Below, piece by piece: positions 9,472 to 25,373 of a stretch of DNA of 64,000 nucleotides (within the stretch, counting starts at the first letter, position 1; every line of letters begins with the position of its first letter). Under the pieces are notes generated by a model. The model did no database searches. It saw nothing but the letters and a program-made list of their open reading frames with translations, and was not told the origin of the DNA. Source of the DNA: Naegleria gruberi (lineage: Eukaryota); NCBI GenBank assembly GCA_000004985.1, contig GG738920.1. One strand, 5' to 3'. The position numbers were made by a program, and so were the translations under genes.

Positions 9472-11230
9472 TTAAGGATTTGACTGATTGGTCTTCCAAG
9501 GATTATGAAACGATGAAAATGATCTGAAATCTTCACGAGAAGCAAATATTTGACATCCAAAGAATGCTTCCTTCGCATCACAAGATTCAATGATGGTGAG
9601 ATTTGAAAGGATTTTCTGAATGGAAATAAGAAAATCCTTTTCTAAATTCACAATAATGAGGTGAGTGGTTGTTTCATTCGTGATGATACTTGGCAGTAGG
9701 TCAATACATTCTGTAGAAATGGTTTCTAATTTTGGAGCACTGAATGAGTGGATATCGTCAGCAAGTGATTGATTATTCGAAACAACACTAATTGTAACAT
9801 TTACTCCACAATTCATGTCACCTACATCCTTTTCTATTACAATGCAATTGGGAGTGTTATGATAGTGAGCTAGCATGACATGTCTAGATACGAAACAACA
9901 CGCAGGCACTCTAGAATAAAGAACATAATCACTGAAATTTGAAAAGTAATCAGAAATGAGAAAACGTGGAGGAATTGAAATCACCAGTGAATGACCTTTT
10001 GATAGCTGAACTTTCGAATAAATTTCAGAAAAGAATCCATTCACATCTTCTCTCCTGTCCAATTTGTGATATCTATCATTTTTGTACATTGAATTAAATA
10101 AGAAAGTTGAACCAGGATTCAAACCAAGATAAAAGTAAACTTGCATTTCTGAACTTTAGTTGTTGGTTGACTGATAAAGAAAATTAAACTTACTGATCTA
10201 AAAGTTTGAAAAAGTATGGCTCAACAGAACGAGGTGTTTTCTCATTGAATAATTGAAAGAATGTCATCTCACTTGTAATATCAATACATAGTGGTGAAAA
10301 TAAGCGTTCTGTGAAGTTTCGAATATTATTGCAACAGTAATACCAATCTGTAAAGTCATTCCCTTCCCAAAATGAGTTAAAAGAAGTATCAGTCCAATAT
10401 CTCTGATAGATGGGTTTCCATACATGTGATGATCGTCCTGCACGATTCAAATTTCTATTCAATGGTAAAATCAATGAGCATATTTCACTTTCCTTCAGAT
10501 ATGAGAAAATAATTGCGAGTATTTCATCTGGAAGTTGTTCGAATTGATTTTCATATGTGTTTCTTTTCAATTCATCTTGTGGTCTGTTCAATAGATATTC
10601 GAATGTCTTGCCACTTTCAACGAGAAACTGTTGGGCAGCTCTATAACTTTTTGAAGCTGCCATGACGTCGCCATTCTTTTCCTGTTCCCTACTCTTCCTC
10701 AATAATTGCTCAATTTTCTTGTAGATTTCTGATTGATCGAATTTGTCATCTCTTGGACATGAGCTTGCATCCACTCTAAAATACATTATTTCAGTTCTAA
10801 GAATAAACTTGGTTCCCTTCCTAACAGAACAACCTTCATGGGCAAAATCTTGATTGAATAGAACAAGTTTACCCATGCTAGGTTTCACAGTATGAACGAG
10901 ATTATAGTAGGAGGAACTATTTCCATCCATCATCTCTGGATCATTGTAAAATCGCGTCTCTCCTCCTTTAAAATCATCATTCAAATAAATTAGTAAGGTA
11001 TAGATACTTCTTTCATTATTGTTTCTTTTGAATTGACCATCAGTGTGAATTTTGAAATATTCTCCGATTTGGTACTTGTTAAATCGCATCATTTCATTGA
11101 CTCCACAAGCTTTCCAAGTTCCTGCACTATCCACACCGAAAGGAGTTACCATTTTACTAATAGCATCCAAATCAATCCTAGTTTTCAGCTTATCAAATAT
11201 TAAACTTGCAAGATCGGCATCAATCATCAA
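9472..11230 (-). CDS. 2OG-Fe(II) oxygenase (prolyl-4-hydroxylase-like) / F-box fusion protein with a C-terminal beta-rich domain. Proposed 40-nt intron at 10154..10193.
   Basis: N-terminal region has HTDGQF...GGETRF...FAHEGCSVRKGTKFILRTEIMY (HxD...H...R of the P4H-type double-stranded beta-helix). An F-box follows: LPDEILAIIFSYLKESEICSLILPLNRNL. The ORF track gives two ORFs (10190..11230 and 9472..10146) only 44 bp apart on the same strand. A CA|GTAAGT donor overlaps the apparent TAA, and the ...ctaaag|TTCAGAA acceptor joins them in frame (...FKLLDH-SEMQVYF...). The join is inferred; the two ORFs could instead be separate genes. Confidence 0.5.
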
Positions 11231-11420
11231 CTCTCGGGTTGAATTTCTATACTCTTTTGGATATTCATCTTGAATTTCCTTAAAATGCTCCTCGGAGTTA
11301 TATTGTAAGATAGAGATTTATAAATTTCCTTGCAAGAGCCAGTTGGTAAGCAAAAGGATTGTTCCACTTTGCTATCTGGGATATTTAATAAATGAGGAAT
11401 ATTTTCAAAGTGAATAAGAT

Positions 11421-11492
11421 TCCCGTGTAGTCCAATGGCTAGGATACCTGGCTTTCACCCAGGAGGTCCGGGTTCAATTCCCGGCATGGGAG
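11421..11492 (+). tRNA. tRNA-Glu (anticodon TTC)
   Basis: TCCCGTGTAGTCCAATGGCTAGGATACCTGGCTTTCACCCAGGAGGTCCGGGTTCAATTCCCGGCATGGGAG. The 7-bp acceptor stem pairs (one G-T wobble). Anticodon loop is CTTTCAC, T-loop is GGTTCAATTCC. Confidence 0.85.
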
Positions 11493-11589
11493 AATCATTT
11501 TGTTCATCTGGTGTTTTAATTATTTTGACATGCCAATAATTACAATTATTATCACTCAAGAAAAACCTTGAATTGATGAACAGCTTATC

Positions 11590-11673
11590 GTTTTCTTATT
11601 CAATATTAAGATTTTGAGAAATTTCAAGGGGATTTTTCTCTTATTTCAATATTAAGATTTTGATGATTTGAAT
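11590..11673 (+). repeat. tandem ~25-nt direct repeats (TCTTATT(T)CAATATTAAGATTTTGA) immediately upstream of 5S copy 1
   Basis: Two copies are read directly, with AAATTTCAAGGGGATTTTTC between them. One copy plus the AAATTTCAAGGGGAATTCC element also precede the second 5S copy (24453..24560 on the other strand). Confidence 0.6.
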
Positions 11674-11791
11674 GGCTACGGCCATATCACGATTCATGCA
11701 CCTCATCCCGTCCGATTTGAGAAGTTAAGCATCGTCGAGCCACATCAGTACTGAGGTTGGAGACAACTTGGGAACCTGTGGTGCTGTAGTC
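11674..11791 (+). rRNA. 5S rRNA gene (118 nt)
   Basis: GGCTACGGCCATATCAC...CCCGTCCGATTTGAGAAGTTAAGC...CAGTACTGAGGTTGGAGACAACTTGGGAACCTGTGGTGCTGTAGTC. Conserved 5S blocks are present (GGCCATA, GAAGTTAAGC, AGTACT, TGGGAA). The 5' and 3' ends pair over 9 bp (helix I). A T-run (TTTTAATTT) follows. Confidence 0.85.
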
Positions 11792-11800
11792 TTTTAATTT
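11792..11800 (+). terminator. T-rich Pol III terminator after 5S copy 1
   Basis: TTTTAATTT directly after the 5S 3' end. Confidence 0.4.
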
Positions 11801-11911
11801 TTCTTTCGTTATGAAAAACCGATTAGCAATCGATATCTTTATTTGAAATGTTGAAGTAGCTCACTTCTATGTTCTCCAATCTGTTGCAGATGAAATTTGA
11901 ACAGCCATCTG

Positions 11912-12889
11912 TCATTGTGCAAATGCTAACTTAAAATAACAACCAGATTGCTTAACAGCTGTAAGAACAACCTCTCTATCAACAGCCAATTCCTCAGAAG
12001 CATACATTCGAGCTTGGTAATCTCTCTTGACAGCTGTCATGACTATTTCTCTATCATTCTTCAATTCATCAGATGCAAACTCGAGTACTTTACCATATTG
12101 CTCCACAGCCAACATTACAATTTTCCTATCATTCCTACTTTCTTCAGAAGCATTTTCAAGTGCCCAACCATTTTGCTTAACAGCTTCCATAACAATTTCT
12201 CTGTCACTTTTCAATTCTTCAGAAGCAAATTCCAGTGAACAACCTTTTGATTTAACTGCTGCCAAGACAATTTCTCTATCTTTTGTTATCTCTTCTGAAG
12301 CAAACTGGAGTGCATAACCACAGTGCTCAACTGCAAACTTGACAATTTCTCCATCTTTTTGAAAATCAGTGGCATATCCTAAAGCATCAACACTTCGTTG
12401 AACTGCCAATAAGACAAATGGTCGATAATTCCACAAGTTGAACAATGAAGCAAGCCAACACATTTCGCTATTGCTGAATAGAGAAATGCACAAATCACAA
12501 AGTTGAAATCTTTCTTTTTTACTGTCAATTCCTGATTCTTGAATCAATTGAATTGCTTCTTCTTCTTGTTCGAAACCGAGTTTCAATATGCGATAGGCAA
12601 ATTTGCGGACTTTCTCCTTGTTTCGATCATCTCTACCACAAAATAAGTGTTGTTTCAGATAAGTGGATGCGATATTCGAATCAAGAGTTAGTATTACGGA
12701 ATCTGAATTATCAATATTTTGAAATGAGAATGATTCAGTGTTTGTTTTTTGTATCTTTGAGGATCGACGTTCGTCCTCACTTTCGAATAGTTTTGAAGAA
12801 TCCTTTCTTTTCATTTTTTCCAGTAAATGATTATTTAAAGCATTTAACAAAATTGTAAAATGGCTATTCGATTTTGTAAAACAATTCAT
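11912..12889 (-). CDS. DUF4116 repeat protein (about seven tandem ~37-aa repeats)
   Basis: Repeated units read ...DREIVLAAVKSKGCSLEFASEELKSDREIVMEAVKQNGWALENASEESRNDRKIVMLAVEQYGKVLEFASDELKNDREIVMTAVKRDY... The same repeat family occurs in gene 30205..32028. The ATG at 12889 lies only 15 bp from the divergent ATG at 12904. Confidence 0.75.
   Translation of the reverse strand: MNCFTKSNSHFTILLNALNNHLLEKMKRKDSSKLFESEDERRSSKIQKTNTESFSFQNIDNSDSVILTLDSNIASTYLKQHLFCGRDDRNKEKVRKFAYRILKLGFEQEEEAIQLIQESGIDSKKERFQLCDLCISLFSNSEMCWLASLFNLWNYRPFVLLAVQRSVDALGYATDFQKDGEIVKFAVEHCGYALQFASEEITKDREIVLAAVKSKGCSLEFASEELKSDREIVMEAVKQNGWALENASEESRNDRKIVMLAVEQYGKVLEFASDELKNDREIVMTAVKRDYQARMYASEELAVDREVVLTAVKQSGCYFKLAFAQ
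11940..12420. repeat. coding tandem repeats (DUF4116 units, ~111-nt period) that generate long spurious antisense ORFs
   Basis: The periodic protein repeat is visible in the translation. ORF-track entries 11948..12238(+) and 12027..12317(+) are antisense to it. Confidence 0.6.
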
Positions 12890-12903
12890 AACCTTAAAAA
12901 AAA

Positions 12904-13520
12904 ATGAATCAACACATGAGCTTCATTAGCGAGGAGGAATTTGTTTTTTCATGTTTGGACACTGATCGAGTGGAAACTGTGAGAACCATGCTAGAAAATG
13001 GCGCCAATCCAGAATCGGAATTTGTAGGTTATTTTGCTGCTAACCACCAATGTGAAGAATCAACTCGTCGGATCACGAATATTTTAAATTTATTTTAAAT
13101 TTATTTGATGATGATGGAATTGTTATTGATGAATGGAATAATGAAAATTATAATAATAATAATGAAGAATGGATCGAGTGCATTGATGGTTGCTTGTTTT
13201 TCTGGAAATTCAAAAGTTGTCCGAATGCTTATTCAATGTGGAGCAAGCCTTGATAGGAAAAATCAGGAAGATGAAGGTGTTGTATTTGTGGCTGCAAAGA
13301 ATAATCAAGTGGAAGTGTTGAGGATTTTACTGGAGCATATGGCTCCTCTTCTTCCCAACAAGGTAATTGTCATAATTTAAATTAATATTATTAATTTAAT
13401 ATTTAATTATTGTATAATTGATAATATTAGGATGGTTTAACTCCGTATCAAATTGCTTCAAAACTTAACCATGTGGAATGTGCAAGAACAATCAGTGATT
13501 ATATGAAATCCATTTATTAA
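12904..13520 (+). CDS. small ankyrin-repeat protein. Exons 12904..13023, 13168..13362, 13431..13520.
   Basis: Spliced product is MNQHMSFISEEEFVFSCLDTDRVETVRTMLENGANPESEF|NGSSALMVACFSGNSKVVRMLIQCGASLDRKNQEDEGVVFVAAKNNQVEVLRILLEHMAPLLPNK|DGLTPYQIASKLNHVECARTISDYMKSIY. Donors are GTAGGT and GTAATT, acceptors are ...aatgaag and ...atattag. Ankyrin consensus (G-TAL--A...LL--GA) is visible. Confidence 0.65.
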
Positions 13521-13700
13521 TCATGTAATATTTTGTAATTGAAAGTTAAAATTAAAAAAATGGAAAAGCAATGAATCACAAAACGATAGAGAAATAATTC
13601 GAATCACTAATTCACACAAAAAGAACGAGTAACAATAATATTAACTTATTGTGAGGAAGGACCCGGTCGGAGAATTCACATTGAAATTCACCAAAAAAAA

Positions 13701-16700
13701 ATGCACAACTCCTCACCACAATTCCTTAATAACATAACAAGGAACATCACAGGGAGAAGAAATTCGCTTTTCCTTTTTATGATGATGACTGTCATCATGA
13801 TCCTAATAACAAATTCATTAGAAATAACTGGTAGTGCAAATAATCAGATGAAACCACTCTCTTACAAGATATCGACAATCGCTGGTCAGGGTTTGATTTC
13901 GGAACAAGATAATTTGAAAGCAAGTTTTGGTTTTGCATCAATGATCTTTATGAATAGGAATGAGAAGGGAGAACAAGTTGAAGATATACTTCTTGTTGAT
14001 GATATCAATTTAGCTGTTAGGAGATTAACTTTTAGAAAGAATGATCAGAATGAGTTCATACCTTCGACAGTAAAAGTATTGGCTGGTGGTATTCCTATGG
14101 AACCTTCACTAGCATATATGAAACCTAAGTTATTGACAATTTCTGAAGGAGGTGATGATGATGAGAATGGTAGAGGAGAAATTTATGTGTTTGAGGAGAG
14201 GAATGGAGGAATGATCAAGAAGATTGACAGGAAGGGAGATTTGCAATTAATTGCCAAATCCTCGAGTGATTCATTCGTATGTGAAGAAGTGAGCTTGGAT
14301 AAGGCAAATTGGGTCTCAATTTCGGATATGAAATATTCAAGAGAAGGAATGGAGGAGGTTTTATATCTTGTTGATTCTAAAAAGATTATTTTGAGAGCTT
14401 CCCTAACAAGAAGAACTATCAAAGCAATAACTAAATGTGTAAAAGATATTACAAATGCTATAATTGATAGTGCCGATCCTTCAGATTTCATTGAAATTAA
14501 TAGTATTTTTGTAAGAAAGAATAGCGAAAATAAGGTAATTCTATATGTTGCTGACAGTAACTCATTGAAAAAGATTGAGCAAGATGGAAATGTATCCAAA
14601 ATTGCTGGAAATGGAAAAGATTACCTGACTGATGCAGATGTATCTACCAACGCACTAAACACAACAGTTTATCCAACCAAGATATTTGTAAATTCTGGAG
14701 GAGAAATTTTATTCACAGAAATGAAGTTTAACAAAATCAGAAAGTTAGACATTCATGGAAATGTTGTATCTATCCAAAGAAATCCGTTTGTCCTCTCGAA
14801 GGGAGTGCTTCAGTCACCTCTCACTAATAATATTTACTTTGAGGAACATAATATAATTTACAAAATGACAGATAAGGGAAATGAACCAATGTTTGGAAAT
14901 GGAACTATTAACAGTCTTAATGGAGTACATGCCATGCAAGCAAGAATTAATCCAATTTCAGTACAAGTTTCATCCAAATCTGGAAAGGATATTATTACTG
15001 TTTTGGATTCTGAGGAATATTTCAAATCAAGAGTAATTGATGAAAATCAAATTATTCAAACAGTAATAGGAGGAGGAATATATAATTTATTGGATATTGA
15101 AGGGATTGATGCATTGAGTGTTCAATTTGTAAAGAATGTTAAAAATTCATTCAGATCCAACAATGGAGATCAATATATTGTGCTGAGCTCAGAATTATTC
15201 AAAATCAATGATGAAGGTAAACTGGTTAGAGTTATTGGATCTGGTTCAAAATTTGCAGGAGATGGTCATAGTGCTTTGTCAGCTATCCTTAATGAACCAA
15301 GTGGTGTTTTTTATTCGAAAACATTAGGAAAAACCTTTATTGCAGATTCAAAGAATGACAGAGTTAGAGTTATTTCTAAAGAGGGTGTTATCTCAACTAT
15401 CATTGGTAAATTGGAGGGCACTGTAGATAACCCAAGAGATGTGATGGAAAGAAATGGATATTTGTACTACGCTGAAAGATCAATTATTTGCAAAATTGAT
15501 TTGGTATCGAATGAACTAGAAGTTATGGTTGGTAATAGACAAACTTCTTTTAATGGTGATGGAAAGAAAGGAAATGAAACATCTATTGGTCCAGAGAGTA
15601 TTTATGTGACTGAAGAAGGTGATATTTACTTTGCTGACATTTCAAATCATCGAATTAGAAAGTGGACAAGAAAAACCGATCTAGTTTCAACAATTGCTGG
15701 AACTGGTGTGCAAGGCTCCAGTGAAGATGGAATTCTGGCAACAAATTCCACAATTGACTCACCATCTGGTGTCTATTTGAATAGAAAGGGAGAGGTTTAT
15801 TTTGTGGAAAGTGAGAGCCATAAAATCAGAAAGATTACATCTGAAGGCAAACTCTTAACCCTCTTCCAAGTGAGATCTCCACACCGATTGATTGTTACAA
15901 GTAATGACGAAGTTATTGTTTCACATGATGCATTCATTACCAAATATTCGAATGGTGAGGTAACAGCAGTTGCAGGATCTAGAATGAAATCGTATCCCGA
16001 ATTGGACGATGATCCATTCGAAACATATTTTGGTTCAATTGGTGGTCTTTCATTTGGAGAGACAGAATCGGATTTACTCTTTGCCAATCCAAAATTTGAT
16101 TTAATTAGAAAGATTTCAAATGGATCCCTATCGAATGTTGCAGGTAGTCATGGAGACGGATTGAATGCACTCGAAGCTAGATTTATGGATATTTCCTCTG
16201 TGGTAGTGAGTCCAGACAATGAGTTGTTCATTGCCGATTCAATGGATCATACTATTAGAAAAGTTTCTAGTGACGGTATTGTTTCAACCATTGCTGGTGT
16301 CTCACAAATTCATGGCTATAACTTATATGATCCACAAGAGAGCATTCTCAATGGACCTACTTCACTTTCTAGTGCAAAAAATGGTGATTTATTCTTCATC
16401 GATCAAAAGAATTATGTCATTCGAAAGATTTCCAATGGAATAGTTACCACAATTATTGGAACACCAAACGAGAGATGCGATATGGAAGAAGGAAAGAGAG
16501 GAAGAGAAACCTGTTTGAGTATGCCACAAAGTCTCGCAGTTTCACCAGGAGGAGATGCTCTTGTTTTTTCTGATCTCTCAACAATAGGAATTTTCCATTA
16601 CAACCTCAATGATGAGAATGCAGTTATTAGACGAATTGCTGGATTTGAAAATGTTATAGGATATAATGGAGATGGAGAAGCCACTACAACATTGATTTCA

Positions 16701-17168
16701 CATGTGCCAAGTTTGGCATTCTCTAACGATGGTTTATCCGTCTATTTTGTTGATAGCAGTAATAATCTTATTAGAAAGCTATCACCTTATTGTCCAGAGG
16801 ATTATGAACTCTCTGAAAAATTACAACAATGCACTGAGAAAGTCATTCCACATCCTAACGAGAGTCCAAAGAAACCAAAACCTCATTTCTCAATGTTCAT
16901 TCCAGGGAATTCTAACATGAGTGGAATGATTAGTGAAAATCTTATGGCTCTACTTCTAGTAACAATTGGATCTGTACTCATTTTGTCAATCATTCTGGCA
17001 GGAGCTATTTATTACTTGCTCAAGAATAGAGAAAGTCAAAAACATTATCAGAAAGTTGAAAGAGATGAAATTCCTGAAGATGTGGATGATAATGATATAG
17101 GAAAATTCTCACTTGGAGCTGATCTTGAAGAAGAAGAAGAAGAAACAGAGGATATTGAAATGATTTAA
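13701..17168 (+). CDS. NHL-repeat type I transmembrane protein (1155 aa)
   Basis: Hydrophobic N-terminal signal (MMMTVIMILITNSL). Multiple NHL-like units end in h-x-R/K-I-R-K motifs (NDRVRVIS, NHRIRKWT, SHKIRKIT, DHTIRKVS, NYVIRKIS, NNLIRKLS). A C-terminal TM (LMALLLVTIGSVLILSIILAGAIYYLL) is followed by an acidic cytoplasmic tail. Single exon. Confidence 0.75.
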   Translation: MHNSSPQFLNNITRNITGRRNSLFLFMMMTVIMILITNSLEITGSANNQMKPLSYKISTIAGQGLISEQDNLKASFGFASMIFMNRNEKGEQVEDILLVDDINLAVRRLTFRKNDQNEFIPSTVKVLAGGIPMEPSLAYMKPKLLTISEGGDDDENGRGEIYVFEERNGGMIKKIDRKGDLQLIAKSSSDSFVCEEVSLDKANWVSISDMKYSREGMEEVLYLVDSKKIILRASLTRRTIKAITKCVKDITNAIIDSADPSDFIEINSIFVRKNSENKVILYVADSNSLKKIEQDGNVSKIAGNGKDYLTDADVSTNALNTTVYPTKIFVNSGGEILFTEMKFNKIRKLDIHGNVVSIQRNPFVLSKGVLQSPLTNNIYFEEHNIIYKMTDKGNEPMFGNGTINSLNGVHAMQARINPISVQVSSKSGKDIITVLDSEEYFKSRVIDENQIIQTVIGGGIYNLLDIEGIDALSVQFVKNVKNSFRSNNGDQYIVLSSELFKINDEGKLVRVIGSGSKFAGDGHSALSAILNEPSGVFYSKTLGKTFIADSKNDRVRVISKEGVISTIIGKLEGTVDNPRDVMERNGYLYYAERSIICKIDLVSNELEVMVGNRQTSFNGDGKKGNETSIGPESIYVTEEGDIYFADISNHRIRKWTRKTDLVSTIAGTGVQGSSEDGILATNSTIDSPSGVYLNRKGEVYFVESESHKIRKITSEGKLLTLFQVRSPHRLIVTSNDEVIVSHDAFITKYSNGEVTAVAGSRMKSYPELDDDPFETYFGSIGGLSFGETESDLLFANPKFDLIRKISNGSLSNVAGSHGDGLNALEARFMDISSVVVSPDNELFIADSMDHTIRKVSSDGIVSTIAGVSQIHGYNLYDPQESILNGPTSLSSAKNGDLFFIDQKNYVIRKISNGIVTTIIGTPNERCDMEEGKRGRETCLSMPQSLAVSPGGDALVFSDLSTIGIFHYNLNDENAVIRRIAGFENVIGYNGDGEATTTLISHVPSLAFSNDGLSVYFVDSSNNLIRKLSPYCPEDYELSEKLQQCTEKVIPHPNESPKKPKPHFSMFIPGNSNMSGMISENLMALLLVTIGSVLILSIILAGAIYYLLKNRESQKHYQKVERDEIPEDVDDNDIGKFSLGADLEEEEEETEDIEMI

Positions 17169-17254
17169 AATTAAATTATATAATACTTAATACTTTACAA
17201 TCACTATTTAAAAAAAATATAAAAAAATATAAAAAAAAAAATTTAAAAAAAAAT

Positions 17255-17641
17255 ATGGCCAACACCTCACGAAGCCTTCTCGATCTAGGCGTTCTCATCA
17301 AATTCCTCCTCCAACTCCCGGTTCGTCTCCTCAACACTGCTACTACACTCTCCAAGAATGCCCTCTACATGATGACCCTAGTATTATTTGCCGATTACTT
17401 GTACCTGAGAAATCAAATTCTAAAACGACAATACAAACAATTAACAGGTCGGTTGTATGTTCCATTGCATAATCGATTGGGAGAGTTGGTTGGATCGGCT
17501 ACGTATCTTTCACTTCCTTCACCGAATACAACAAGATCGATTAGAATGGCTTCTGGTTCTTCTGGTGCTTCCATTGGAGGTGCTTTAGGAGAAGAGGAAG
17601 AGAGTGGTTCCTTGATTAATTATAATGGAAGAAGAAATTAA
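17255..17641 (+). CDS. hypothetical small protein (128 aa)
   Basis: ATG-initiated ORF after an A-rich tract. Composition is GC-richer than its surroundings. No family recognised, so it could be non-coding. Confidence 0.3.
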   Translation: MANTSRSLLDLGVLIKFLLQLPVRLLNTATTLSKNALYMMTLVLFADYLYLRNQILKRQYKQLTGRLYVPLHNRLGELVGSATYLSLPSPNTTRSIRMASGSSGASIGGALGEEEESGSLINYNGRRN

Positions 17642-18117
17642 TTATTGTTGTTAATTTTGATGATGAAGATGATGTTAGTAAATGATGCTATGATATGATG
17701 AATACTATTTAATTGAGATTTTGATCAAAGATGCATGCAGAGATGATGTGGGACGGATGTGCATATCGGATTTATATTTCAATTAGATCTTTCTATATAA
17801 GAATTATTGAACGGACGTGAAAATCATGAATCCAAAATTGTAAATTATGAACACATGATTGATGATGATTGAATACACAAACCATGTTTTGTATTATTAT
17901 CGTGACTATTGCATGACGTTTTGCAGGACTCCAATCACATGATCAGTTGAGACCTCACTTTGAGACTCCAATCAAGAATGTGGCTGCCATGCTGAATATT
18001 TCATTGAGCATTAGCATGCATGAAATATCTAATGATATTTAAACTAGAGTAAATGCATGAGATGGATGAGAATGCATACATATATTAAACCAACTTGATA
18101 TAACATTTGGAATTACA

Positions 18118-19143
18118 TTAATGACCAGTTTTAGCTTTTACATATTGATAAAAATCAGAGCTGAACAATGAAACTCTCCATGTATGTTTGCTCTGCTTGA
18201 ATAGATGTGGATTCTCCTTAGCCAATCGTTTGAATTCCTCACTAGTTAGAACTAATTTACATTCCTTCTCTGGAAACTCCTTTTCAAACATGGGAACAAA
18301 ATTGACCAACACGCGAGTTCTGGAGCTGATTGCTTTGAATGCTCCCACGAGGTAATACGTTTTCGAACCCCAATTGACCACCATTTGAGAAGGATCAATC
18401 TCGCTATGGTCTGAACTAGATGATTCATCAAATGCCATTGAACTAAATGTAATGCATGCGGGTGTAGAAGATGATGATGGAGTTTTTCCATTAGAATTAG
18501 ATGTTTTTCTCTTAGTTGGGGTTGATTCTCGAATGCATTCATCTCTCTTCCTCTTAAATTGCGCAATTTCATCCTTTAATTGCTTATTTTCCATTTGTAA
18601 TTGATTAATAATTAGCATTTGCTGCTCACATCTATGTTCCAGATTAATGTTTTCAAATTGAGATTTGGACATGTGCATGTTAGATGTGTCCTGCATTTCA
18701 TTCTTCATGTTTACACGTTGATAATTAGTAGTGGAAAGTATTACATCTTGTTTTAACTCCATGATGTTAGATGGCGATGCAACATGTTGATGTAACATCT
18801 TACTTGGTTGTTGATAAGATGGAGCTGTGTAAATTACATGTGATATTTGAGAAGGTCGAAGAACTGGAGGTGATGTGTGTTTCAATGTGTCCATGCTTGT
18901 TACTACAAATGGGTTTGCAATTGAACCATTGCTATGGATATTAGGTATTGAGTTGATTCTTTGAGTGGAAAACACATCGTGTTGAGATTCATGTGGTGGT
19001 AGATGGTTAAGAGAAGGATGACTATTCGAAACTAGATCCTTTATGGATGGTAGCATGTTTGTTGTTGGTAAATGTTGTAAACATGTGTTGGTATTCATTG
19101 GGACATTATTTGCAATGACATTTGTTTGCTGGTTATTAGACAT
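18118..19143 (-). CDS. hypothetical coiled-coil protein with a conserved-looking C-terminal domain
   Basis: ATG (MSNNQQTNV...) lies within the longer track ORF, which starts at GTG. Central heptad/leucine-zipper-like segment is INQLQMENKQLKDEIAQFKRKRDECIRE. The C-terminal ~110 aa are non-low-complexity (WGSKTYYLVGAFKAISSRTRVLVNFVPMFEKEF...). Confidence 0.6.
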   Translation of the reverse strand: MSNNQQTNVIANNVPMNTNTCLQHLPTTNMLPSIKDLVSNSHPSLNHLPPHESQHDVFSTQRINSIPNIHSNGSIANPFVVTSMDTLKHTSPPVLRPSQISHVIYTAPSYQQPSKMLHQHVASPSNIMELKQDVILSTTNYQRVNMKNEMQDTSNMHMSKSQFENINLEHRCEQQMLIINQLQMENKQLKDEIAQFKRKRDECIRESTPTKRKTSNSNGKTPSSSSTPACITFSSMAFDESSSSDHSEIDPSQMVVNWGSKTYYLVGAFKAISSRTRVLVNFVPMFEKEFPEKECKLVLTSEEFKRLAKENPHLFKQSKHTWRVSLFSSDFYQYVKAKTGH

Positions 19144-19754
19144 TGCTATTTTTTTAAGTTGAGATTCGAATATTCGGCGCCAGCCGCACCTCAGCTTCAC
19201 GTTGCGGAGTATTCCTGTGCCACAACTTTTTCAAAAAATGGCACCAAACATCTACCAAAACATCGTTGATAGATGTCGACATGCATTTGAAATACTATAT
19301 ATTTCGAATAAATTGAATTCAATGATTGATCATATCTCTCAATTCTGAATGAAGATCATAAAATGACAACGTTCACCTTACGGTACCAATTAACTCTTCA
19401 TGAAGAAATGTTCTAAATGAGTGTAGAAAAAAGTAATTGAAGTCAATGATTCCTCTGTGTCCATTGACATCTAGTTACAGTAGTCGATGGTGTGTATGAT
19501 GAGTATGATGAAAATGAACCTTTTATTGATTTGTTGATGTATTCATAATTATCATTTATCGTCGATCAATATTTAATTCAGGTATGGAAATGCCAAATTT
19601 ATCATTTAGGTCGCGACAAAGTTCGGTAGCTCACTGAAATCTGGTTGCGAGAGATTTGTTGTGATTTACCAAACATTTATTAAAATTATCATTCAACATT
19701 TAAACATGTTTCAACTTTTCAAATGTTCATTTAATTACAAATTTAAGCTTCATT

Positions 19755-20348
19755 TCAACACAATTTTGAAACTTGTAAATTAATGCAAACTTCATTATCA
19801 GGCGTATAGACTCTCTCATGTGGAATGGTTTTTGTCTTTTTACTGATATGAGCCAATTCAGTACAATCTACAATCTCCACAAAATCCTCTCCATTCCTAA
19901 ATGTTTCTCTCTTTTTAATTCCTAATTGTAAATCCCTCCTCCTCTTAATTGGCTCCAATTCTGGTGAATAATCAGGATCCCACTGAGCTCTAGTCAACCC
20001 AGCTCCAGCTCCTTTCAATCTTGCCTTTTTCAAAATATCATCATAGGCACTTTTTTTCAACCACAACCCAAGAATTCTTGTCTGATTTTGCTTAGTTGCA
20101 TAATTTGATCGATACATCATCCATAGCCAATTGGATTTCACCCAGGTCATTCGGGTATCATTATACGAAGGACATCCATCAAACTTTTGATGTTTGACCG
20201 CATAATCTGCAATTTCATCATTAAATGCTTGATAAACAAGAACCGCATCCTCGGTATAGCTTGCAATTATGTGATTTCCGTCATCGGGCCACTCGTTTCT
20301 TGCCTCTCCGTACGGAATAAGCGTGAGGGTTCGTTGATTGTTTGCCAT
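19755..20348 (-). CDS. DUF4291-like protein (197 aa)
   Basis: Translation MANNQRTLTLIPYGEARNEW...RMTWVKSNWLWMMYRSNYATKQNQTRILGLWLKKSAYDDILKKA resembles the conserved core of DUF4291 proteins as I recall it. This needs an HMM check. Single exon. Confidence 0.6.
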   Translation of the reverse strand: MANNQRTLTLIPYGEARNEWPDDGNHIIASYTEDAVLVYQAFNDEIADYAVKHQKFDGCPSYNDTRMTWVKSNWLWMMYRSNYATKQNQTRILGLWLKKSAYDDILKKARLKGAGAGLTRAQWDPDYSPELEPIKRRRDLQLGIKKRETFRNGEDFVEIVDCTELAHISKKTKTIPHERVYTPDNEVCINLQVSKLC

Positions 20349-21850
20349 TTTTTTTTTGTTGAGATTTTTAATTTTAGATTTTGTAAATTTTATAAATTTG
20401 GAACTGAAAATTAAGGATTTACATTTGGAAATTGAAATTGTAAAGTTGTGTGAATTGACAAATAATTTTCAATAGAGGAATCGTCTATGCTATCTGAAAT
20501 ATCTGATGCCACGTCTGGAGATTGGCTTTGCACATGATTTTAAGCAATTTGGCAAAACAACTTTTTTGTGTTTTAAAATTCTTTATTTTGAAACAAGACA
20601 AGAAATCAAACAACAAGCTTTTGATAATTAGCTGAAGATTGAGCCAACTTTGAAATCTTTTCAAATAACATAAGTCTTTTCAATAATTGCCAAATCCTTA
20701 ACATTTTCATCTCACGATATGGCAATGAAATTTGATGTAAACGCGCTACATCTCAGTTCACAACCATCAATGATTGTTTTCGGACACCAAATCAATGACA
20801 CTTATTGAATTCACGTTCCATAAGTTTATTCTGAGTTTCGAATAATCTCTCTATTATCATCTCTCTCCTGTTGGCCACGTACGTTTGTCACAACACATTG
20901 ATGTGTTTTTCTGAGAAAAATACAATTTCCTTTTTTGCATTTTCATAAAAGGCATAAAAAATAGCCGTTTAATAACGAAAATTTGTAATTTTTATGAAAT
21001 TCATGGCATCGAACACACATCTATTTGATGTGAATTGATAAATTTGAATTGATACAATTCTCTTCCAAATTTGGAAAAATGTTGAATTTGGAAATTATTC
21101 GAATATGGTGCGAGTTGAATGTGAGGAATTATGCCTTACTATTGTACCGAAACGAAACTGAAATTTAGTATAGACTTTCTAATACTAAAATACTATTTAA
21201 TATATTTTTCAATGAAAATGAATGTATAATTTATCAATGCTTGTTAATCAAAACGTGTTTTTCAATTTTCATGTTACATTGCAAATTAATAAAAACAAGA
21301 TTGAGAACAAGTAATTATACTAATGGGTATTAAAGCTCAGGGACTGTTACACCTTTAAGGTGATTCAGCCTTGAGACCTGCTTTAATGGATATAAATCTT
21401 TATTAGCAGGTCCCGAGATTAATAAATATGGCTCTTATAAAAAAACTTATCAATAGTATTAGTAAAGATAAGAAAAAAATTAGGAGGTGCGAATAGGATG
21501 GCATAACTAAACTGAAATTAAAATAAAAAAGATATCATTTGATGATATCTGAAACCTCACTTCAATGAACACTTACCAAGAATCATTGAGAGCGTAAAAA
21601 AGGTTGAATAAGGGTGGGACTAATTGGGTGGGAGTTATCTGCAGAAGGTGAGCTAAGGTCTTTCGTTTTCTTGTTGTTCTTTGGTGTAGTTGGTGTTGGG
21701 GCCATTGTGATAATTTTTTGAGCATGGAAAAATACTCAACTTATATTTTATTAAGTTTACAATGAAAACAAGTCCATTCTTCACTTCGCTCAGAATTAGA
21801 CATCACGTTTGCTAAATTAAGAAAGATCAAAAACTTTCAAACATAAAAAA

Positions 21851-23164
21851 ATGTCAAATCTTCGCTCACGAATTAGCAGCTCCATTATTGATCAGAAAAC
21901 ATTGATTTCGACGGAGGATGAAGTGACCAACGAGTTGGAACACATTTTTCTCTACTTGTCAAATTTTAAACCATTGGAAGAGGAGAATTCTGATGGAGAA
22001 ATTGTTATTCGAAATCAGACGAATGATTCCAATGACCAGGAAGATGAACTGGATTCGAATGTTGATGATGATGATGAATTTTTATATTATAGAAGTGAAA
22101 TTGTTGATCAAATGTCTGAAATATTCGAAAGGAGAAGAAGCAATTCTTCATCTTTCGTATTAGTTTACAATAATGTTCATTATTTGAACGAACCAGTTGT
22201 ATTTGGTAATATTCTAGATTATTATTTCAAACCAAACGATTCAGATTTTAATCCAAAGAAAGCAGGCGGAACTTCTTCCACTTTCTTACACTTTCTAACA
22301 TTGAGAGAGGTCTGTAAATCTTGGAAGAAATACATAGACGAAAGGTATGGCAGAAGCTTCATTCTCTCCATTTTCCAAGACAGAATTCAATATCAAGATT
22401 GTAAACCAAATATGGATTTGTGTTTGTTTCGTCTATGTGGTCTACCTTTCTCCCTAGCTCTCATTCCAGCAGTTATGGCTTTCGAATATTCAAAAGATGA
22501 ATGCACACAAGCAATTTCTATGTGGCTCTCCTTTCGTCTAACTTGGATGATCGTGAGTGGCTATCCAGTTTTAGTTCCAGCTATTTGTTGTGCAACTTTG
22601 GTTGATTTGGCCATTGAAAAGATGCGTGAAAGAAGTTTCTTCCAAAGATTAGAAAGCAGATACGAAACTATGGAACACAGTGTCATGAGTGAAATTACGT
22701 ATTTTGAAAAGTGTGAGATTGTTGCAACCATTCAAGATTCCTCAAAAACATTTAACAAACATTCATGTTTCTATATCATTGAGGTTACGCTTAATGTGAA
22801 TGGAAAGTTGTTGGGCTTTCGAATACAGAAAAAGTATACTCAATTCAAAATATTGTTCGATATCATGTGTAAATGTGTTGATAATAATAATAATAGGGAT
22901 GGAACTTTAGAGGTCAATTCGAATGAGAGAATTGAATTTCCACTCAAGAGATGGTCTCTATTTACGAATCCAGACGAAATCATTGAAGAAAGAAAGCATG
23001 TTTTCCAGAAAATGTTGAATCTCATTGTTGAGCATTCGAATATTTTCCACAACTCTGAAATTTACACATTCTTTTACGATAGAAAAAATCAACAAGTTTT
23101 GTTGGGAAATTGTGCTAGAGAAAGTGGTGAAGAGGAGGGCTTTCTTCTAGTTGATAATGAATAG
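21851..23164 (+). CDS. PX (phox-homology) domain-containing protein (437 aa)
   Basis: C-terminal region ...CFYIIEVTLNVNGKLLGFRIQKKYTQFKILFDIMCK...RIEFPLKRWSLFTNPDEIIEERKHVFQKMLNLIVEH... fits the PX pattern (R-Y-x-F, proline-rich stretch, ...ER+..L..YL). The N-terminus is acidic and low-complexity. Confidence 0.6.
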   Translation: MSNLRSRISSSIIDQKTLISTEDEVTNELEHIFLYLSNFKPLEEENSDGEIVIRNQTNDSNDQEDELDSNVDDDDEFLYYRSEIVDQMSEIFERRRSNSSSFVLVYNNVHYLNEPVVFGNILDYYFKPNDSDFNPKKAGGTSSTFLHFLTLREVCKSWKKYIDERYGRSFILSIFQDRIQYQDCKPNMDLCLFRLCGLPFSLALIPAVMAFEYSKDECTQAISMWLSFRLTWMIVSGYPVLVPAICCATLVDLAIEKMRERSFFQRLESRYETMEHSVMSEITYFEKCEIVATIQDSSKTFNKHSCFYIIEVTLNVNGKLLGFRIQKKYTQFKILFDIMCKCVDNNNNRDGTLEVNSNERIEFPLKRWSLFTNPDEIIEERKHVFQKMLNLIVEHSNIFHNSEIYTFFYDRKNQQVLLGNCARESGEEEGFLLVDNE

Positions 23165-23393
23165 TGTAAGATTGTCTGATGTCTTGATGAATAAACTTGG
23201 GGATTGTTCCCTTCTTCATTGTCAATCGAGTTTGTGAAATAATAATTGATAAATGACTTATCAGATAGGAGAATTAAACAATTGACTGCAATTATTTCAA
23301 GATCAGCTAAAAAAGTTAGAATACAATTGATTTTTTCCAAATCCTGTGTGAGTATCTATTTCCATTCAAAAAAGACGTGAAACCAAAATGATT

Positions 23394-23465
23394 CTCCCAT
23401 GCCGGGAATTGAACCCGGACCTCCTGGGTGAAAGCCAGGTATCCTAGCCATTGGACTACACGGGA
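23394..23465 (-). tRNA. tRNA-Glu (TTC), second copy, inverted relative to copy 1
   Basis: Exact reverse complement of the 11421..11492 sequence. About 30 nt of 5' flank (ATGAGGAATATTTT.AAAG.GAATAAGAT) is also shared. Confidence 0.85.
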
Positions 23466-24321
23466 ATCTTATTCTCTTTAAAAATATTCCTCATCTATAA
23501 AATAGCATTGGTTGTAACGAAAAATTAATTATTCCAATCATTTAAGTTCTTTCTAGATCAGAAAGCATACAGTGTAGTAGTTCCTTACAAAAATCTAAAC
23601 CAAAACCATCTTGAAAAACAAGCTCTATACCTAGTCCAGAGTCTCAAGAAGAAATTGGACGAAAATTTATAAAGTTTTAAGAAAAGATAAAGTTGCAATA
23701 TTTCTGAGTTTTCTGGATATTCAAAAAGTGAAATATTCCGAATGTTAAATTGAAATACTTATTACCAGGTTAGCTAGCCATTCTTAAAATTCGTCATCAT
23801 ACATGCTCGGAATTTGACAAATACTCAATTTTGCTCTGATTGAGATTTCTTTGTGCAATGATTTTTCAATTAATTAAAAGAGTTAGGTGGCTCCTAATCT
23901 GACGGTTTGTGCAATGTCTGATTGAAACCAAATCAAAGTGAGCAATTAAGCTCAAACCCTGATCCCTACAAAAAATTGAGTTAATAGTAGATGCAACCCG
24001 TGAGCTGCTTTCAGCTATTAAACTGAAAAGAACAGATACTACACTCGATCAAAGCCAATTGGCCGAGAAAGATGGTTTTGAGAATTGCATAAGGAACAGA
24101 GTTTTTATTCTGTTGGTTGTGGAGCGAAGAATGGCAAAATGTTTGTGGTATTTTAATAAATTTTAATGCCTTGTTCGACTATTGATATTGAACATGTAGC
24201 GAATCTTAATAATCAATATTTATGATGGAGCAGTTCAATCAGAACTTGGAAAGAATGTGAGAAGCAAACTTGACCAACAATTAAGGGGGATTGATAAGTA
24301 AACGTGAACTAGTGAAAAAAC

Positions 24322-24334
24322 AAATAAACAAAAA
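24322..24334 (-). terminator. T-rich Pol III terminator after 5S copy 2
   Basis: Minus strand reads TTTTTGTTTATTTG directly 3' of the 5S gene. Confidence 0.35.
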
Positions 24335-24452
24335 GACTACAGCACCACAGGTTCCCAAGTTGTCTCCAACCTCAGTACTGATGTGGCTCGACGATGCTTA
24401 ACTTCTCAAATCGGACGGGATGAGGTGCGTTCATCGTGATATGGCCGTAGCC
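24335..24452 (-). rRNA. 5S rRNA gene, second copy (118 nt), inverted relative to copy 1
   Basis: Reverse complement is GGCTACGGCCATATCACGATGAACGCACCTCATCCCGTCCGATTTGAGAAGTTAAGC...GGTGCTGTAGTC. It differs from copy 1 only in the GATTCATGC / GATGAACGC segment. Confidence 0.85.
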
Positions 24453-24672
24453 ACTCAGATTATCAAAATCTTAATATTGAATAAGAAAACGGTCAGCTGT
24501 TTGAAGCTGTTGATAATCAGAAAGAAATCTTCCACTTGGGTGTGATAATAAATAAGAGGAATTCCCCTTGAAATTTTGGTACAAAAAGGTTGTTCTCTTT
24601 ATTAAATTTACAAAACATAGGATATCTAATATCCTCTTGTAACAGCAATGGTGTAAGATGAAATTAAAATTA

Positions 24673-24759
24673 TCCGATGAGACGGAATCGAACCGCCGAC
24701 CACAGGATGACAGTTTTTCTTGCTACAGTCCCATGCTCTACCAGCTGAGCTATCATCGG
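24673..24759 (-). tRNA. tRNA-Tyr (GTA) with a ~14-nt intron 3' of the anticodon
   Basis: Minus strand reads CCGATGATAGCTCAGCTGGTAGAGCATGGGACTGTAG[caagaaaaactgtc]ATCCTGTGGTCGGCGGTTCGATTCCGTCTCATCGGA. Acceptor is CCGATGA/TCATCGG. A GTA anticodon followed by an intron is typical of eukaryotic tRNA-Tyr. Confidence 0.8.
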
Positions 24760-25299
24760 TTACAATGAATTCAAAGTTATTAAGGATTGTCCAGAAATAA
24801 GACAACTCATTGTTTGGTTTTCGATAAATTGGGGCAAAATGATTTTTTAAAGGATTTTGTTCTCTTAATTTTCAATTTTGCTGACCATTTGTGGTCTTTT
24901 TTAAATTTTCATCGTCGTACAGATTAGGTGGTAAGGCTTTAATTTTGGTAATTTTCAAAATTAATTTATTGGAAAGTTGTTAATAAATTAATAATTTTTA
25001 TTATTTCACAATGTCCTTATTCTCCAAGCAAGATTACACTCAAGAGGAAGAAGCAACTGATGATACCAATGTGTTCGAGGAGGATGGATCGAAGAAGCTT
25101 ATTGATGAATCATCACAGAGTCAACATGATGAACAGTCGGGTTGACAGCTGTTTATGTAAATAACAATCATTGTTACTATTCATCTATTAATATTGTTAA
25201 TGTTACTCAATTCATATCCATTCATATCATGTGATTACATAGATGATAACCAAACAAGTTATTCAATATTAAACAGCAACCAGAAAATTAAAAATCAGA

Positions 25300-25373
25300 T
25301 ACCGACAATGGGGCTCGAACCCACGACCCCAGGATTAGAAGTCCTGTGCTCTATCCAACTGAGCTATGACGGC
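25300..25373 (-). tRNA. tRNA-Arg (TCT)
   Basis: Minus strand reads GCCGTCATAGCTCAGTTGGATAGAGCACAGGACTTCTAATCCTGGGGTCGTGGGTTCGAGCCCCATTGTCGGTA. Anticodon loop is CTTCTAA. There is one T-T mismatch in the acceptor stem, so a pseudogene is possible. Confidence 0.7.

What the first reader, a model, noticed from the sequence alone, without database searches (positions are those of the whole stretch)
11421..24452. Chromosomal, tRNA-linked 5S rRNA genes as an inverted duplicated module bracketing ~11.5 kb
A tRNA-Glu(TTC) + 5S unit occurs twice in opposite orientation, at 11421..11791 (+) and 23394..24452 (-). The two tRNA-Glu copies are identical and share their 5' flank. The two 5S copies differ at a few positions. 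Both 5S genes are preceded by the same ~25-nt direct-repeat element (TCTTATTCAATATTAAGATTTTGA) plus an AAATTTCAAGGGGA box, which may be an upstream Pol III promoter element. In copy 2 about 860 bp of ORF-free sequence separates the tRNA from the 5S gene, against about 180 bp in copy 1. As I recall it, Dictyostelium discoideum 5S is carried on the extrachromosomal rDNA palindrome, so dispersed chromosomal 5S genes tied to tRNA genes would be a different organisation. The inverted pair could also drive inversion of the intervening eight-gene block.
Basis: partly seen in the sequence, partly recalled or inferred. Interest (0 to 1): 0.55.

Follow-up and report, generated by a model that had tools for sequence, protein, structure and literature searches.

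The report
Ordinary dispersed Naegleria 5S/tRNA/U2 gene clusters
The window is nuclear DNA of the amoeboflagellate Naegleria gruberi (not Dictyostelium), and the two 5S rRNA genes are two of about 279 scattered chromosomal copies already listed in a 2012 paper, sitting in ordinary small-RNA gene clusters rather than forming a special inverted module.

Summary
The raw observation holds. Two identical tRNA-Glu(TTC) genes and two 5S rRNA genes, which differ at 3 nt, lie in opposite orientation about 12 kb apart and share short upstream flanks.

Three parts of the description fail:
- The organism is Naegleria gruberi, not a dictyostelid. A window ORF is identical to an N. gruberi cullin apart from one gap where that gene model skips 52 residues.
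- The 868-bp "ORF-free" spacer in copy 2 holds a full-length U2 snRNA gene. An intron-containing tRNA-Tyr and a tRNA-Arg lie just beyond.
- The two units are not mirror images. Copy 1 reads tRNA→5S and copy 2 reads 5S→U2→tRNA. Homology covers only each gene plus about 35-100 nt upstream.

Chromosomal, dispersed 5S is the known state in Naegleria. Its rDNA plasmid carries only 18S/5.8S/28S, and Feng et al. 2012 list 279 5S genes on 117 scaffolds. Two of their entries (scaffold_76) match this window's copies.

The best reading is independently transcribed Pol III genes, plus a probably Pol II U2 gene, in loose clusters that arose by small local duplications and rearrangement. A promoter role for the shared upstream element and an inversion of the intervening block both remain untested. 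The finding is ordinary and of low interest.

The parts
11382..11420 (+). Conserved 5' flank of tRNA-Glu copy 1 (ATGAGGAATATTTTCAAAGTGAATAAGAT; AT-rich core about -23 to -16)
   Evidence: Inverted repeat I2, 121 nt at 97%; alignment; blastn
11421..11492 (+). tRNA-Glu(TTC) copy 1, followed by a T4 run (AATCATTTTG)
   Evidence: ARAGORN; RF00005, 67.0 bits
11594..11617 (+). Distal copy of the 5S upstream element TCTTATTCAATATTAAGATTTTGA, with no gene directly after it. With 11579-11593 it is homologous to the region upstream of 5S copy 2
   Evidence: (I3, 42 nt at 93%)
11619..11632 (+). AAATTTCAAGGGGA box, 42 nt upstream of 5S copy 1
   Evidence: 28-nt 89% match to 24550-24576
11640..11663 (+). 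Proximal copy of the upstream element. Its AATATTAA core lies at about -26 to -19 from the 5S start
11674..11792 (+). 5S rRNA gene copy 1. It is a variant with 3 substitutions at positions 21, 22 and 24. One of them breaks a helix pair. A T4 run follows
   Evidence: RF00001, 100.3 bits, with two columns flagged as non-canonical; sequence comparison; fold of -37.6 kcal/mol with the canonical three-way junction
23394..23465 (-). tRNA-Glu(TTC) copy 2, identical to copy 1. The shared 5' flank extends to 23504
   Evidence: The same tRNA is at the same site in environmental N. gruberi-like contig L015
23882..24075 (-). U2 spliceosomal snRNA gene, full length, with the GUAGUA branch-point-binding sequence and a U-rich Sm site
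   Evidence: RF00004, 115 bits against a gathering score of 46, model positions 1-192
24334..24452 (-). 5S rRNA gene copy 2 (closer to the consensus form), followed by a T5 run
   Evidence: RF00001, 105.2 bits; 1 nt different from the 5S of environmental Naegleria contig L006; fold of -40.9 kcal/mol
24463..24486 (-). Upstream element TCTTATTCAATATTAAGATTTTGA before 5S copy 2
24563..24576 (-). AAATTTCAAGGGGA box, 111 nt upstream of 5S copy 2
24673..24759 (-). tRNA-Tyr(GTA) with a 14-nt intron at the canonical 37/38 position
   Evidence: RF00005, 54.8 bits. ARAGORN missed it. Anticodon and intron were read by hand from the sequence
25300..25373 (-). tRNA-Arg(TCT), the outermost member of small-RNA cluster 2

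Best explanation
The window is a nuclear scaffold of Naegleria gruberi, inferred to be scaffold_76:32001-96000 of the JGI assembly. The finding covers two loose clusters of small-RNA genes.
- Cluster 1 (+ strand): tRNA-Glu, then 5S.
- Cluster 2 (- strand): tRNA-Arg, tRNA-Tyr, 5S, U2, tRNA-Glu.

Each gene is most likely its own transcription unit. The tRNA genes would use internal A/B boxes. The 5S genes would use an internal control region helped by an AT-rich, TATA-like stretch near -25. Every one of these genes is followed by a T4-T5 run that would act as a Pol III terminator. U2 probably has its own Pol II promoter.

The two 5S genes belong to a family of about 279 copies scattered over the chromosomes. 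This is the normal arrangement in Naegleria, whose rDNA plasmid lacks 5S. The two tRNA-Glu copies and the two 5S copies share only the gene plus about 35-100 nt of upstream sequence. This points to small DNA-level duplications followed by local rearrangement, not to one inverted segmental duplication.

Shown: gene identities, the extent of homology, the permuted gene order, the organism, and the prior catalogue. Inferred: which polymerase transcribes each gene, the promoter elements, and the history of duplication.
For: -
- Organism: a cullin ORF is identical to the N. gruberi protein outside one 52-residue gap. DUF4116, NHL and F-box gene content points the same way, and GC is about 34% throughout.
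- Feng et al. 2012 report 279 N. gruberi 5S genes that are not linked to rDNA.
- My analysis of their table gives 117 scaffolds, only one adjacent gap under 1 kb, and 99 of 279 copies with a neighbour within 15 kb. scaffold_76 holds entries 12,656 bp apart that map onto the window's copies.
- The Naegleria rDNA plasmid encodes only 18S/5.8S/28S (PMC12482156).
- Thirteen environmental contigs with Naegleria-type 5S each carry a single 5S, with unique flanks and no adjacent tRNA or snRNA.
- T-runs follow every small-RNA gene, and the tRNA and 5S genes have no internal T4.
- Both 5S copies fold into the canonical three-way junction.
Against: - Two of two 5S genes in the window lie within 1 kb of the same tRNA-Glu isoacceptor. 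This looks more than casual, and genome-wide linkage could not be measured because the N. gruberi assembly was not retrievable.
- The identity of the window with scaffold_76 rests on matching coordinates, not on a sequence comparison.
- No expression data are available for either 5S variant.
- Feng et al. score N. gruberi 5S as 'tandem: yes', which their own table does not bear out.
Confidence: 0.85

Rival explanations
1. A single tRNA-Glu+5S module was duplicated in inverted orientation, and the two copies bracket the 11.6-kb block and can invert it.
For: The repeats are in opposite orientation and nearly identical: 156 nt at 95% and 121 nt at 97%. Both units combine the same two gene types.
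Against: The gene order is permuted, not mirrored. tRNA(-) at 23394 lies at a lower coordinate than 5S(-) at 24334. The spacers are unrelated: 181 nt against 868 nt containing U2. Homology stops about 40 nt upstream of the tRNA and about 100 nt upstream of the 5S. No other inverted homology flanks them.
Confidence: 0.07
2. The permuted order is the scar of a past inversion, or a still polymorphic one, of about 12 kb by homologous recombination between the inverted 5S copies or the inverted tRNA-Glu copies. Undoing a 5S-mediated inversion gives a compact tRNA-Glu-5S-U2-tRNA-Glu cluster. Undoing a tRNA-mediated one gives 5S-U2-tRNA-Glu-5S.
For: Either reconstruction turns one repeat pair into a simple local direct duplication within about 1.3 kb. 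This matches the 1-5 kb spacing class of neighbouring 5S copies in Feng's table: 32 of 162 adjacent gaps are at most 5 kb. The arm lengths are enough for recombination.
Against: There is no direct evidence. The environmental relative L015 covers only one side of one junction. Synteny with N. lovaniensis ends at the cullin gene. The block genes that were searched returned no N. lovaniensis or N. fowleri orthologue.
Confidence: 0.2
3. The shared upstream element (TCTTATTCAATATTAAGATTTTGA, with or without the AAATTTCAAGGGGA box) is a dedicated external promoter for 5S. This could be important because BLAST searches did not find TFIIIA in N. gruberi.
For: The element is exact in all three occurrences, and the two gene-proximal ones end 10 nt before the 5S start. 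Its AATATTAA core lies at about -26 to -19, where TFIIIB/TBP binds. Feng et al. report a TATA box upstream of N. gruberi 5S and no TFIIIA.
Against: L006 carries a 5S only 1 nt different, from a related Naegleria, and has an unrelated upstream flank. The box is at -42 in one copy and -111 in the other, in permuted order. One element copy has no gene directly behind it. AT-run enrichment at -35 to -12 across 13 loci is weak: mean longest run 7.1 against 4.7-6.4 in control windows. Flank conservation of about 90% fits recent common ancestry.
Confidence: 0.15
4. Yarrowia-type dicistronic tRNA-5S gene, in which 5S copy 1 is co-transcribed from the tRNA-Glu promoter.
For: The order tRNA-Glu then 5S on one strand, and the reported lack of TFIIIA. 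Yarrowia uses tRNA-Glu, among other tRNAs, as a leader.
Against: The spacer is 181 nt, against 4-7 nt in Yarrowia. A T4 run follows the tRNA directly. Copy 2 has no tRNA-Glu upstream, only a tRNA-Tyr 220 nt away with its own T-run.
Confidence: 0.03
5. Trypanosomatid-like arrangement, in which U2 is transcribed by Pol III under the control of A/B boxes in a neighbouring tRNA gene. Naegleria and trypanosomatids are both Discoba.
For: U2 is embedded among Pol III genes, all on one strand, and is followed within 2 nt by a T4 run. In trypanosomatids all snRNA genes are Pol III-transcribed and depend on neighbouring tRNA gene boxes (PMC11894013).
Against: U2 contains internal T6 (Sm site) and T4 runs. 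These should stop Pol III if T4 is enough for termination, as it appears to be at the tRNA-Glu and 5S genes here. The upstream neighbour is a 5S gene 258 nt away on the same strand. The tRNA-Glu is 416 nt downstream, not upstream.
Confidence: 0.05

Closest known systems
Dispersed chromosomal 5S rRNA genes of Naegleria gruberi (Feng et al. 2012, PLoS One, PMC3369914, Table S1)
   Same: Same organism and same gene family. Table entries scaffold_76:43677-43793 and 56333-56452 coincide with window positions 11677-11793 and 24333-24452 at an offset of 32,000. The genes are not linked to rDNA, and the paper reports an ICR and an upstream TATA box.
   Different: That paper gives only coordinates and marks the arrangement as 'tandem'. 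It does not describe the neighbouring tRNA and U2 genes, the shared upstream element, or the orientation of the copies.
Dispersed 5S genes of Yarrowia lipolytica, including dicistronic tRNA-5S genes (Acker et al. 2008, PMC2566860)
   Same: 5S genes are scattered through the genome rather than sitting in rDNA or in tandem arrays. Some lie 3' of tRNA genes, including tRNA-Glu.
   Different: Yarrowia fusions have 4-7 nt spacers and are co-transcribed. Here the spacer is 181 nt with a T4 terminator, the 5S has its own upstream element, and the second 5S copy has a different neighbour.
Trypanosomatid snRNA/tRNA gene association (summarised in PMC11894013)
   Same: Both are discobid lineages with a U2 snRNA gene physically clustered with tRNA and 5S genes.
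   Different: In trypanosomatids, boxes A and B of a neighbouring tRNA gene drive Pol III transcription of the snRNA. Here no tRNA lies directly upstream of U2, and U2 has internal T-runs that do not fit Pol III.
5S rDNA linked to other multicopy small-RNA genes (snRNA, spliced-leader RNA, histone and tRNA genes) in various eukaryotes. This rests on my own knowledge of the literature, e.g. Drouin and de Sa 1995, and was not checked here
   Same: 5S genes lie next to U-snRNA and tRNA genes.
   Different: Those cases are usually tandemly repeated composite units that evolve in concert. Here the clusters are single, not repeated, and differ in composition.
5S on the extrachromosomal rDNA palindrome of Dictyostelium discoideum
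   Same: Both organisms keep their large rRNA genes on an extrachromosomal element.
   Different: The organism is different. The Naegleria plasmid carries only 18S/5.8S/28S (PMC12482156), and the window holds ordinary nuclear protein-coding genes and no large rRNA.

Membership tests
5S rRNA (Rfam RF00001) | Covariance-model score above the gathering threshold over the full model length | tested here: met
   100.3 and 105.2 bits against a threshold of 38, model positions 1-120
5S rRNA (Rfam RF00001) | Three-way-junction secondary structure | tested here: met
   The minimum-free-energy folds of both copies give the canonical Y shape. Copy 1 lacks one pair, G21-C58
5S rRNA (Rfam RF00001) | Expression and incorporation into ribosomes | not testable with these tools
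   No RNA data are available. The two variants could be told apart at positions 21-24
tRNA-Glu(UUC) | Cloverleaf with a TTC anticodon, called by two independent programs | tested here: met
   ARAGORN and RF00005 at 67 bits, for both copies
U2 spliceosomal snRNA (RF00004) | Full-length covariance-model match, with the GUAGUA branch-point-interacting sequence and an Sm site | tested here: met
   115 bits against a threshold of 46, model positions 1-192. GUGUAGUAUCUGUUCUU and AAUUUUUUG are visible in the alignment
Inverted segmental duplication (one module copied in reverse) | Collinear homology: the order of elements in arm 2 mirrors the order in arm 1 | tested here: not met
   Left arms start at 11382 (tRNA) and then 11645 (5S). 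Right arms start at 23384 (tRNA) and then 24326 (5S). This is the same order, not a mirrored one
Inverted segmental duplication (one module copied in reverse) | Homology continuous through the intergenic spacer | tested here: not met
   The 181-nt and 868-nt spacers do not align with each other, and the longer one holds U2
Tandem 5S rDNA array | Head-to-tail repeats of a 5S unit | tested here: not met
   The 64-kb window has only two 5S genes, in opposite orientation and 12.5 kb apart. Genome-wide, only one adjacent gap is under 1 kb
5S carried on extrachromosomal rDNA | Linkage to 18S/5.8S/28S genes on the same molecule | tested here: not met
   No SSU, LSU or 5.8S match anywhere in the window. 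The window is full of nuclear protein-coding genes. The Naegleria plasmid lacks 5S
Yarrowia-type dicistronic tRNA-5S gene | 5S immediately 3' of the tRNA (4-7 nt) with no terminator between them | tested here: not met
   The spacer is 181 nt and a T4 run lies 5 nt after the tRNA.
Trypanosomatid tRNA-dependent Pol III snRNA gene | A tRNA or tRNA-like gene close upstream of the snRNA that supplies A/B boxes | tested here: not met
   The upstream neighbour of U2 is the 5S gene, 258 nt away on the same strand. No tRNA hit lies in that 258-nt interval even at E<=0.1
Trypanosomatid tRNA-dependent Pol III snRNA gene | Transcription by Pol III | not testable with these tools
   Indirect evidence only: internal T6 and T4 runs argue against it, and the T4 run just downstream argues weakly for it
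Upstream (type-3-like or TATA) Pol III promoter element for 5S | A conserved motif at a fixed distance upstream in independent gene copies | tested here: inconclusive
   The element is at the same distance in the two window copies but absent from L006. AT-run enrichment near -25 is weak across 13 loci. The other roughly 277 N. gruberi copies could not be fetched

The most novel reading that the evidence does not exclude
BLAST searches did not find TFIIIA in N. gruberi. In that setting, the 5S genes might depend on the conserved upstream element, whose TATA-like core lies near -25, as an external promoter rather than on the classical internal control region with TFIIIA. A further possibility is that inverted dispersed Pol III gene copies such as this pair mediate kb-scale inversions that contribute to the fast loss of synteny between Naegleria species.
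Probability: 0.12. Interest if true: 0.4.

Novelty: already known. Interest (0 to 1): 0.1.

Why it matters
It matters little beyond annotation. The check corrects the organism and adds a U2 snRNA gene and a tRNA-Tyr to the locus. It also shows that both 5S genes belong to an already published catalogue of dispersed chromosomal copies, which is the expected state for a genus whose rDNA plasmid lacks 5S. Two modest follow-up questions remain. The first is how 5S is transcribed in a lineage where TFIIIA has not been found. The second is whether dispersed Pol III gene repeats promote rearrangements in Naegleria genomes.

Tried and rejected
- Fetching more N. gruberi sequence through the look-up of encoding contigs failed for the N. 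gruberi cullin protein and for two window ORFs. Genome-wide 5S-tRNA linkage and conservation of the upstream element could therefore not be measured directly.
- The syntenic N. lovaniensis locus L001 has no small-RNA genes. It shares only the hemerythrin, DAP3 and cullin genes with the window, so it says nothing about the clusters or about an inversion.
- An orthologue search with the PX-domain gene next to cluster 2 returned only one environmental N. gruberi-like protein. Its 1.9-kb contig ends inside tRNA-Glu.
- An orthologue search with the G-alpha exon to the right of cluster 2 returned no Naegleria genome hits.
- A sensitive Rfam scan of 10500-26500 at E<=0.1 found nothing beyond the seven genes.
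- A weak resemblance of the upstream element at 24202-24218, upstream of U2 (17 nt, 88%, E=0.34), and a 3-mismatch hit at 22386 were judged to be chance.
- The Fritz-Laylin 2010 genome paper is not in the held library.
- Considered and rejected: the dictyostelid origin, the Yarrowia-type dicistron, and the trypanosomatid-type tRNA-driven U2. See the membership tests.


Full report
**Observation**

ARAGORN and Rfam agree on two tRNA-Glu(TTC) genes, at 11421-11492 (+) and 23394-23465 (-). Both score 67.0 bits and are identical. Rfam also calls two full-length 5S rRNA genes, at 11674-11792 (+, 100.3 bits) and 24334-24452 (-, 105.2 bits), against a gathering score of 38.

The 5S copies differ at three clustered positions: 21, 22 and 24 (TCAT against GAAC). 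The change at position 21 removes one helix pair in copy 1. Rfam flags that pair as non-canonical, and the fold energy is -37.6 against -40.9 kcal/mol. Both copies still fold as the canonical three-way junction. The other Naegleria-type 5S sequences recovered here have GAAAG or GAAAA at this spot, so copy 1 is the derived variant.

The repeat finder gives inverted arms of 156 nt at 95% (5S plus flanks) and 121 nt at 97% (tRNA plus flanks). The element TTCAATATTAAGATTTTGA occurs exactly three times, at 11599, 11645 and 24463(-). About 0.33 matches at up to three mismatches are expected by chance. The AAATTTCAAGGGGA box occurs exactly twice, both times upstream of a 5S gene, inside a 28-nt 89% match.

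- The 868-nt "ORF-free" stretch between tRNA-Glu and 5S in copy 2 contains a full-length U2 snRNA gene at 23882-24075 (-). It scores 115 bits against 46 and has the GUAGUA branch-point-binding sequence and a U-rich Sm site.
- Just beyond 5S copy 2, on the same strand, lies a tRNA that Rfam detects and ARAGORN misses. Read by hand, it is tRNA-Tyr(GTA) with a 14-nt intron at position 37/38. tRNA-Arg(TCT) follows at 25300-25373. Cluster 2 therefore reads, along the minus strand, tRNA-Arg, tRNA-Tyr, 5S, U2, tRNA-Glu.
- The two units are not mirror images. A reversed copy of a tRNA->5S module would place 5S(-) at the lower coordinate. Here tRNA(-) is at 23394 and 5S(-) at 24334. Along their own strands, copy 1 is tRNA->5S and copy 2 is 5S->U2->tRNA.
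- Homology is confined to the tRNA plus 39 nt upstream and 10 nt downstream, and to the 5S plus about 30 nt upstream and 4-8 nt downstream. Patchy, rearranged similarity extends to about -100 upstream of the 5S.
- The upstream pieces are themselves shuffled. Copy 2 reads box, about 60 nt, AACAGCT segment, element, 5S. Copy 1 reads AACAGCT segment, element, box, element, 5S. The box is 42 nt from the gene in copy 1 and 111 nt in copy 2.

**Organism**

GC content is about 34% across the whole window, which is too high for D. discoideum (about 22%, from my own knowledge). The ORFs encode DUF4116-repeat, NHL/B-box and F-box proteins. A cullin ORF is identical to an N. gruberi protein except for 52 residues that the public gene model skips. 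The next best hits are N. lovaniensis (69%), N. fowleri (68%) and Willaertia (51%). The window is N. gruberi nuclear DNA. No large rRNA gene is present.

**What is already known**

Naegleria keeps its 18S, 5.8S and 28S genes on a circular extrachromosomal plasmid that does not carry 5S (PMC12482156). Feng et al. 2012 (PMC3369914) searched the N. gruberi assembly and listed 279 putative 5S genes "not located with rDNA units". They reported an internal control region and an upstream TATA box, and found no TFIIIA.

I analysed their Table S1:
- The 279 entries lie on 117 scaffolds.
- Only one adjacent gap is under 1 kb, so there are no tandem arrays, although the paper's summary table says "tandem: yes".
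- 99 of 279 copies have another copy within 15 kb, against about 18% expected under random placement.
- scaffold_76 carries entries at 43677-43793 and 56333-56452. With an offset of 32,000 these fall on window positions 11677-11793 and 24333-24452.

Both 5S genes are therefore already catalogued, and a loose pair about 12 kb apart is typical of the family. The scaffold match is inferred from coordinates, not from a sequence comparison.

**Related sequences**

An exact-pattern scan of metagenome contigs with a Naegleria-type 5S core found 13 contigs. Each has a single 5S gene and no tRNA or snRNA nearby.
- L006 carries a 5S only 1 nt different from window copy 2. Its upstream flank is unrelated, apart from an AT-rich stretch near -25.
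- Eleven contigs, sharing one more distant 5S type, have unique flanks right up to the gene boundaries. L014 has yet another 5S type and a GC-rich flank.
- Across 13 loci, AT-run enrichment at -35 to -12 is only weak.
- An environmental N. gruberi-like contig, L015, whose PX protein is 98% identical, keeps tRNA-Glu(-) at the same position as copy 2.
- The N. lovaniensis locus syntenic for the hemerythrin, DAP3 and cullin genes has no small-RNA genes, and synteny ends just before cluster 1.

**Mechanism**

The best-supported reading is a set of independent transcription units. All tRNA and 5S genes are followed within 10 nt by a T4-T5 run and contain no internal T4. This fits Pol III genes with internal promoters and a permissive AT-rich upstream region. 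U2 contains internal T6 and T4 runs, which argues that Pol II transcribes it despite the T4 run just after its 3' end. This step is an inference.

The shared flanks are about 90% identical, while the genes are 97-100% identical. This fits small DNA-level duplications in which the genes are held by selection or gene conversion while the flanks decay.

**Rival models**

- A Yarrowia-type dicistronic tRNA-5S gene is excluded by the 181-nt spacer and the terminator after the tRNA, against 4-7 nt spacers in Yarrowia.
- A trypanosomatid-type tRNA-driven Pol III U2 gene does not fit, because no tRNA lies upstream of U2 and because of the internal T-runs.
- A dedicated promoter role for the shared element is possible. 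The L006 flank, the variable position of the box, and the element copy with no gene directly behind it all weaken this idea.
- One attractive but untested idea is that the permuted order is the scar of a roughly 12-kb inversion through one repeat pair. Undoing it would give a compact tRNA-Glu-5S-U2-tRNA-Glu or 5S-U2-tRNA-Glu-5S cluster. No outgroup or population data could be obtained to test this.

**Verdict**

The organisation described is the known one for N. gruberi. Novelty is "already known" and interest is low.

Noticed in passing
window 23882-24075 (-): A full-length U2 snRNA gene lies between 5S copy 2 and tRNA-Glu copy 2. It has internal T6 and T4 runs, and a T4 run begins 2 nt after its 3' end. 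Which polymerase transcribes U2 in Heterolobosea is an open point, given that trypanosomatids use Pol III.
   Followed up: partly
window 24673-24759 (-): tRNA-Tyr(GTA) with a 14-nt intron at position 37/38. Rfam detects it (54.8 bits) but ARAGORN misses it in both runs.
   Followed up: yes
window 6632-8620 (-) compared with protein P0001: The public N. gruberi cullin gene model lacks 52 residues that are in frame in the genome. The tblastn match to N. lovaniensis spans these residues without a large gap. The model probably contains a falsely called intron.
   Followed up: partly
window 11912-12889 (-) and 30205-32112 (-): Two DUF4116-repeat genes. The first shows a 75-nt periodic DNA repeat (5 copies, 11952-12358) directly next to 5S copy 1. 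NHL/B-box genes also occur twice, at 13701-17168 and 34246-36237. These are lineage-expanded families, in the region beyond the point where N. lovaniensis synteny ends.
   Followed up: no
L002, L003, L005, L007-L013 (metagenome contigs VFQM/VFQO): Dispersed 5S copies from one environmental organism differ from each other by compensatory changes in one helix: GCGTAG/CTGCGC, GTGTAG/CTGCAC, GCATAG/CTGTGC and GCTGAG/CTCAGC. Their flanks are unique right up to the gene ends, which would fit dispersal of the transcribed unit alone.
   Followed up: no
L015:1790-1810 compared with window 23350-23372: In an environmental N. gruberi-like contig, the 3' flank of tRNA-Glu copy 2 carries a 7-nt indel and 4 substitutions, while the tRNA and the PX gene end are unchanged. 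The contig breaks inside the tRNA, as assemblers often do at repeats.
   Followed up: partly
window 25010-25145 (+): A small acidic ORF of about 44 aa (MSLFSKQDYTQEEEATDD...) lies between tRNA-Tyr and tRNA-Arg on the opposite strand. It may be a short gene or a first exon inside the small-RNA cluster.
   Followed up: no
window 26387-28324 (+): A multi-exon G-protein alpha-subunit gene lies 1 kb from cluster 2. The word-based homologue search with its last exon returned no Naegleria genome proteins, only environmental fragments at 42-54% identity.
   Followed up: partly
PMC3369914, Table 1 compared with Table S1: The paper scores N. gruberi 5S genes as tandemly arranged. Its own coordinate table shows 279 copies on 117 scaffolds with a single adjacent gap under 1 kb, so the genes are dispersed with loose clustering.
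   Followed up: yes
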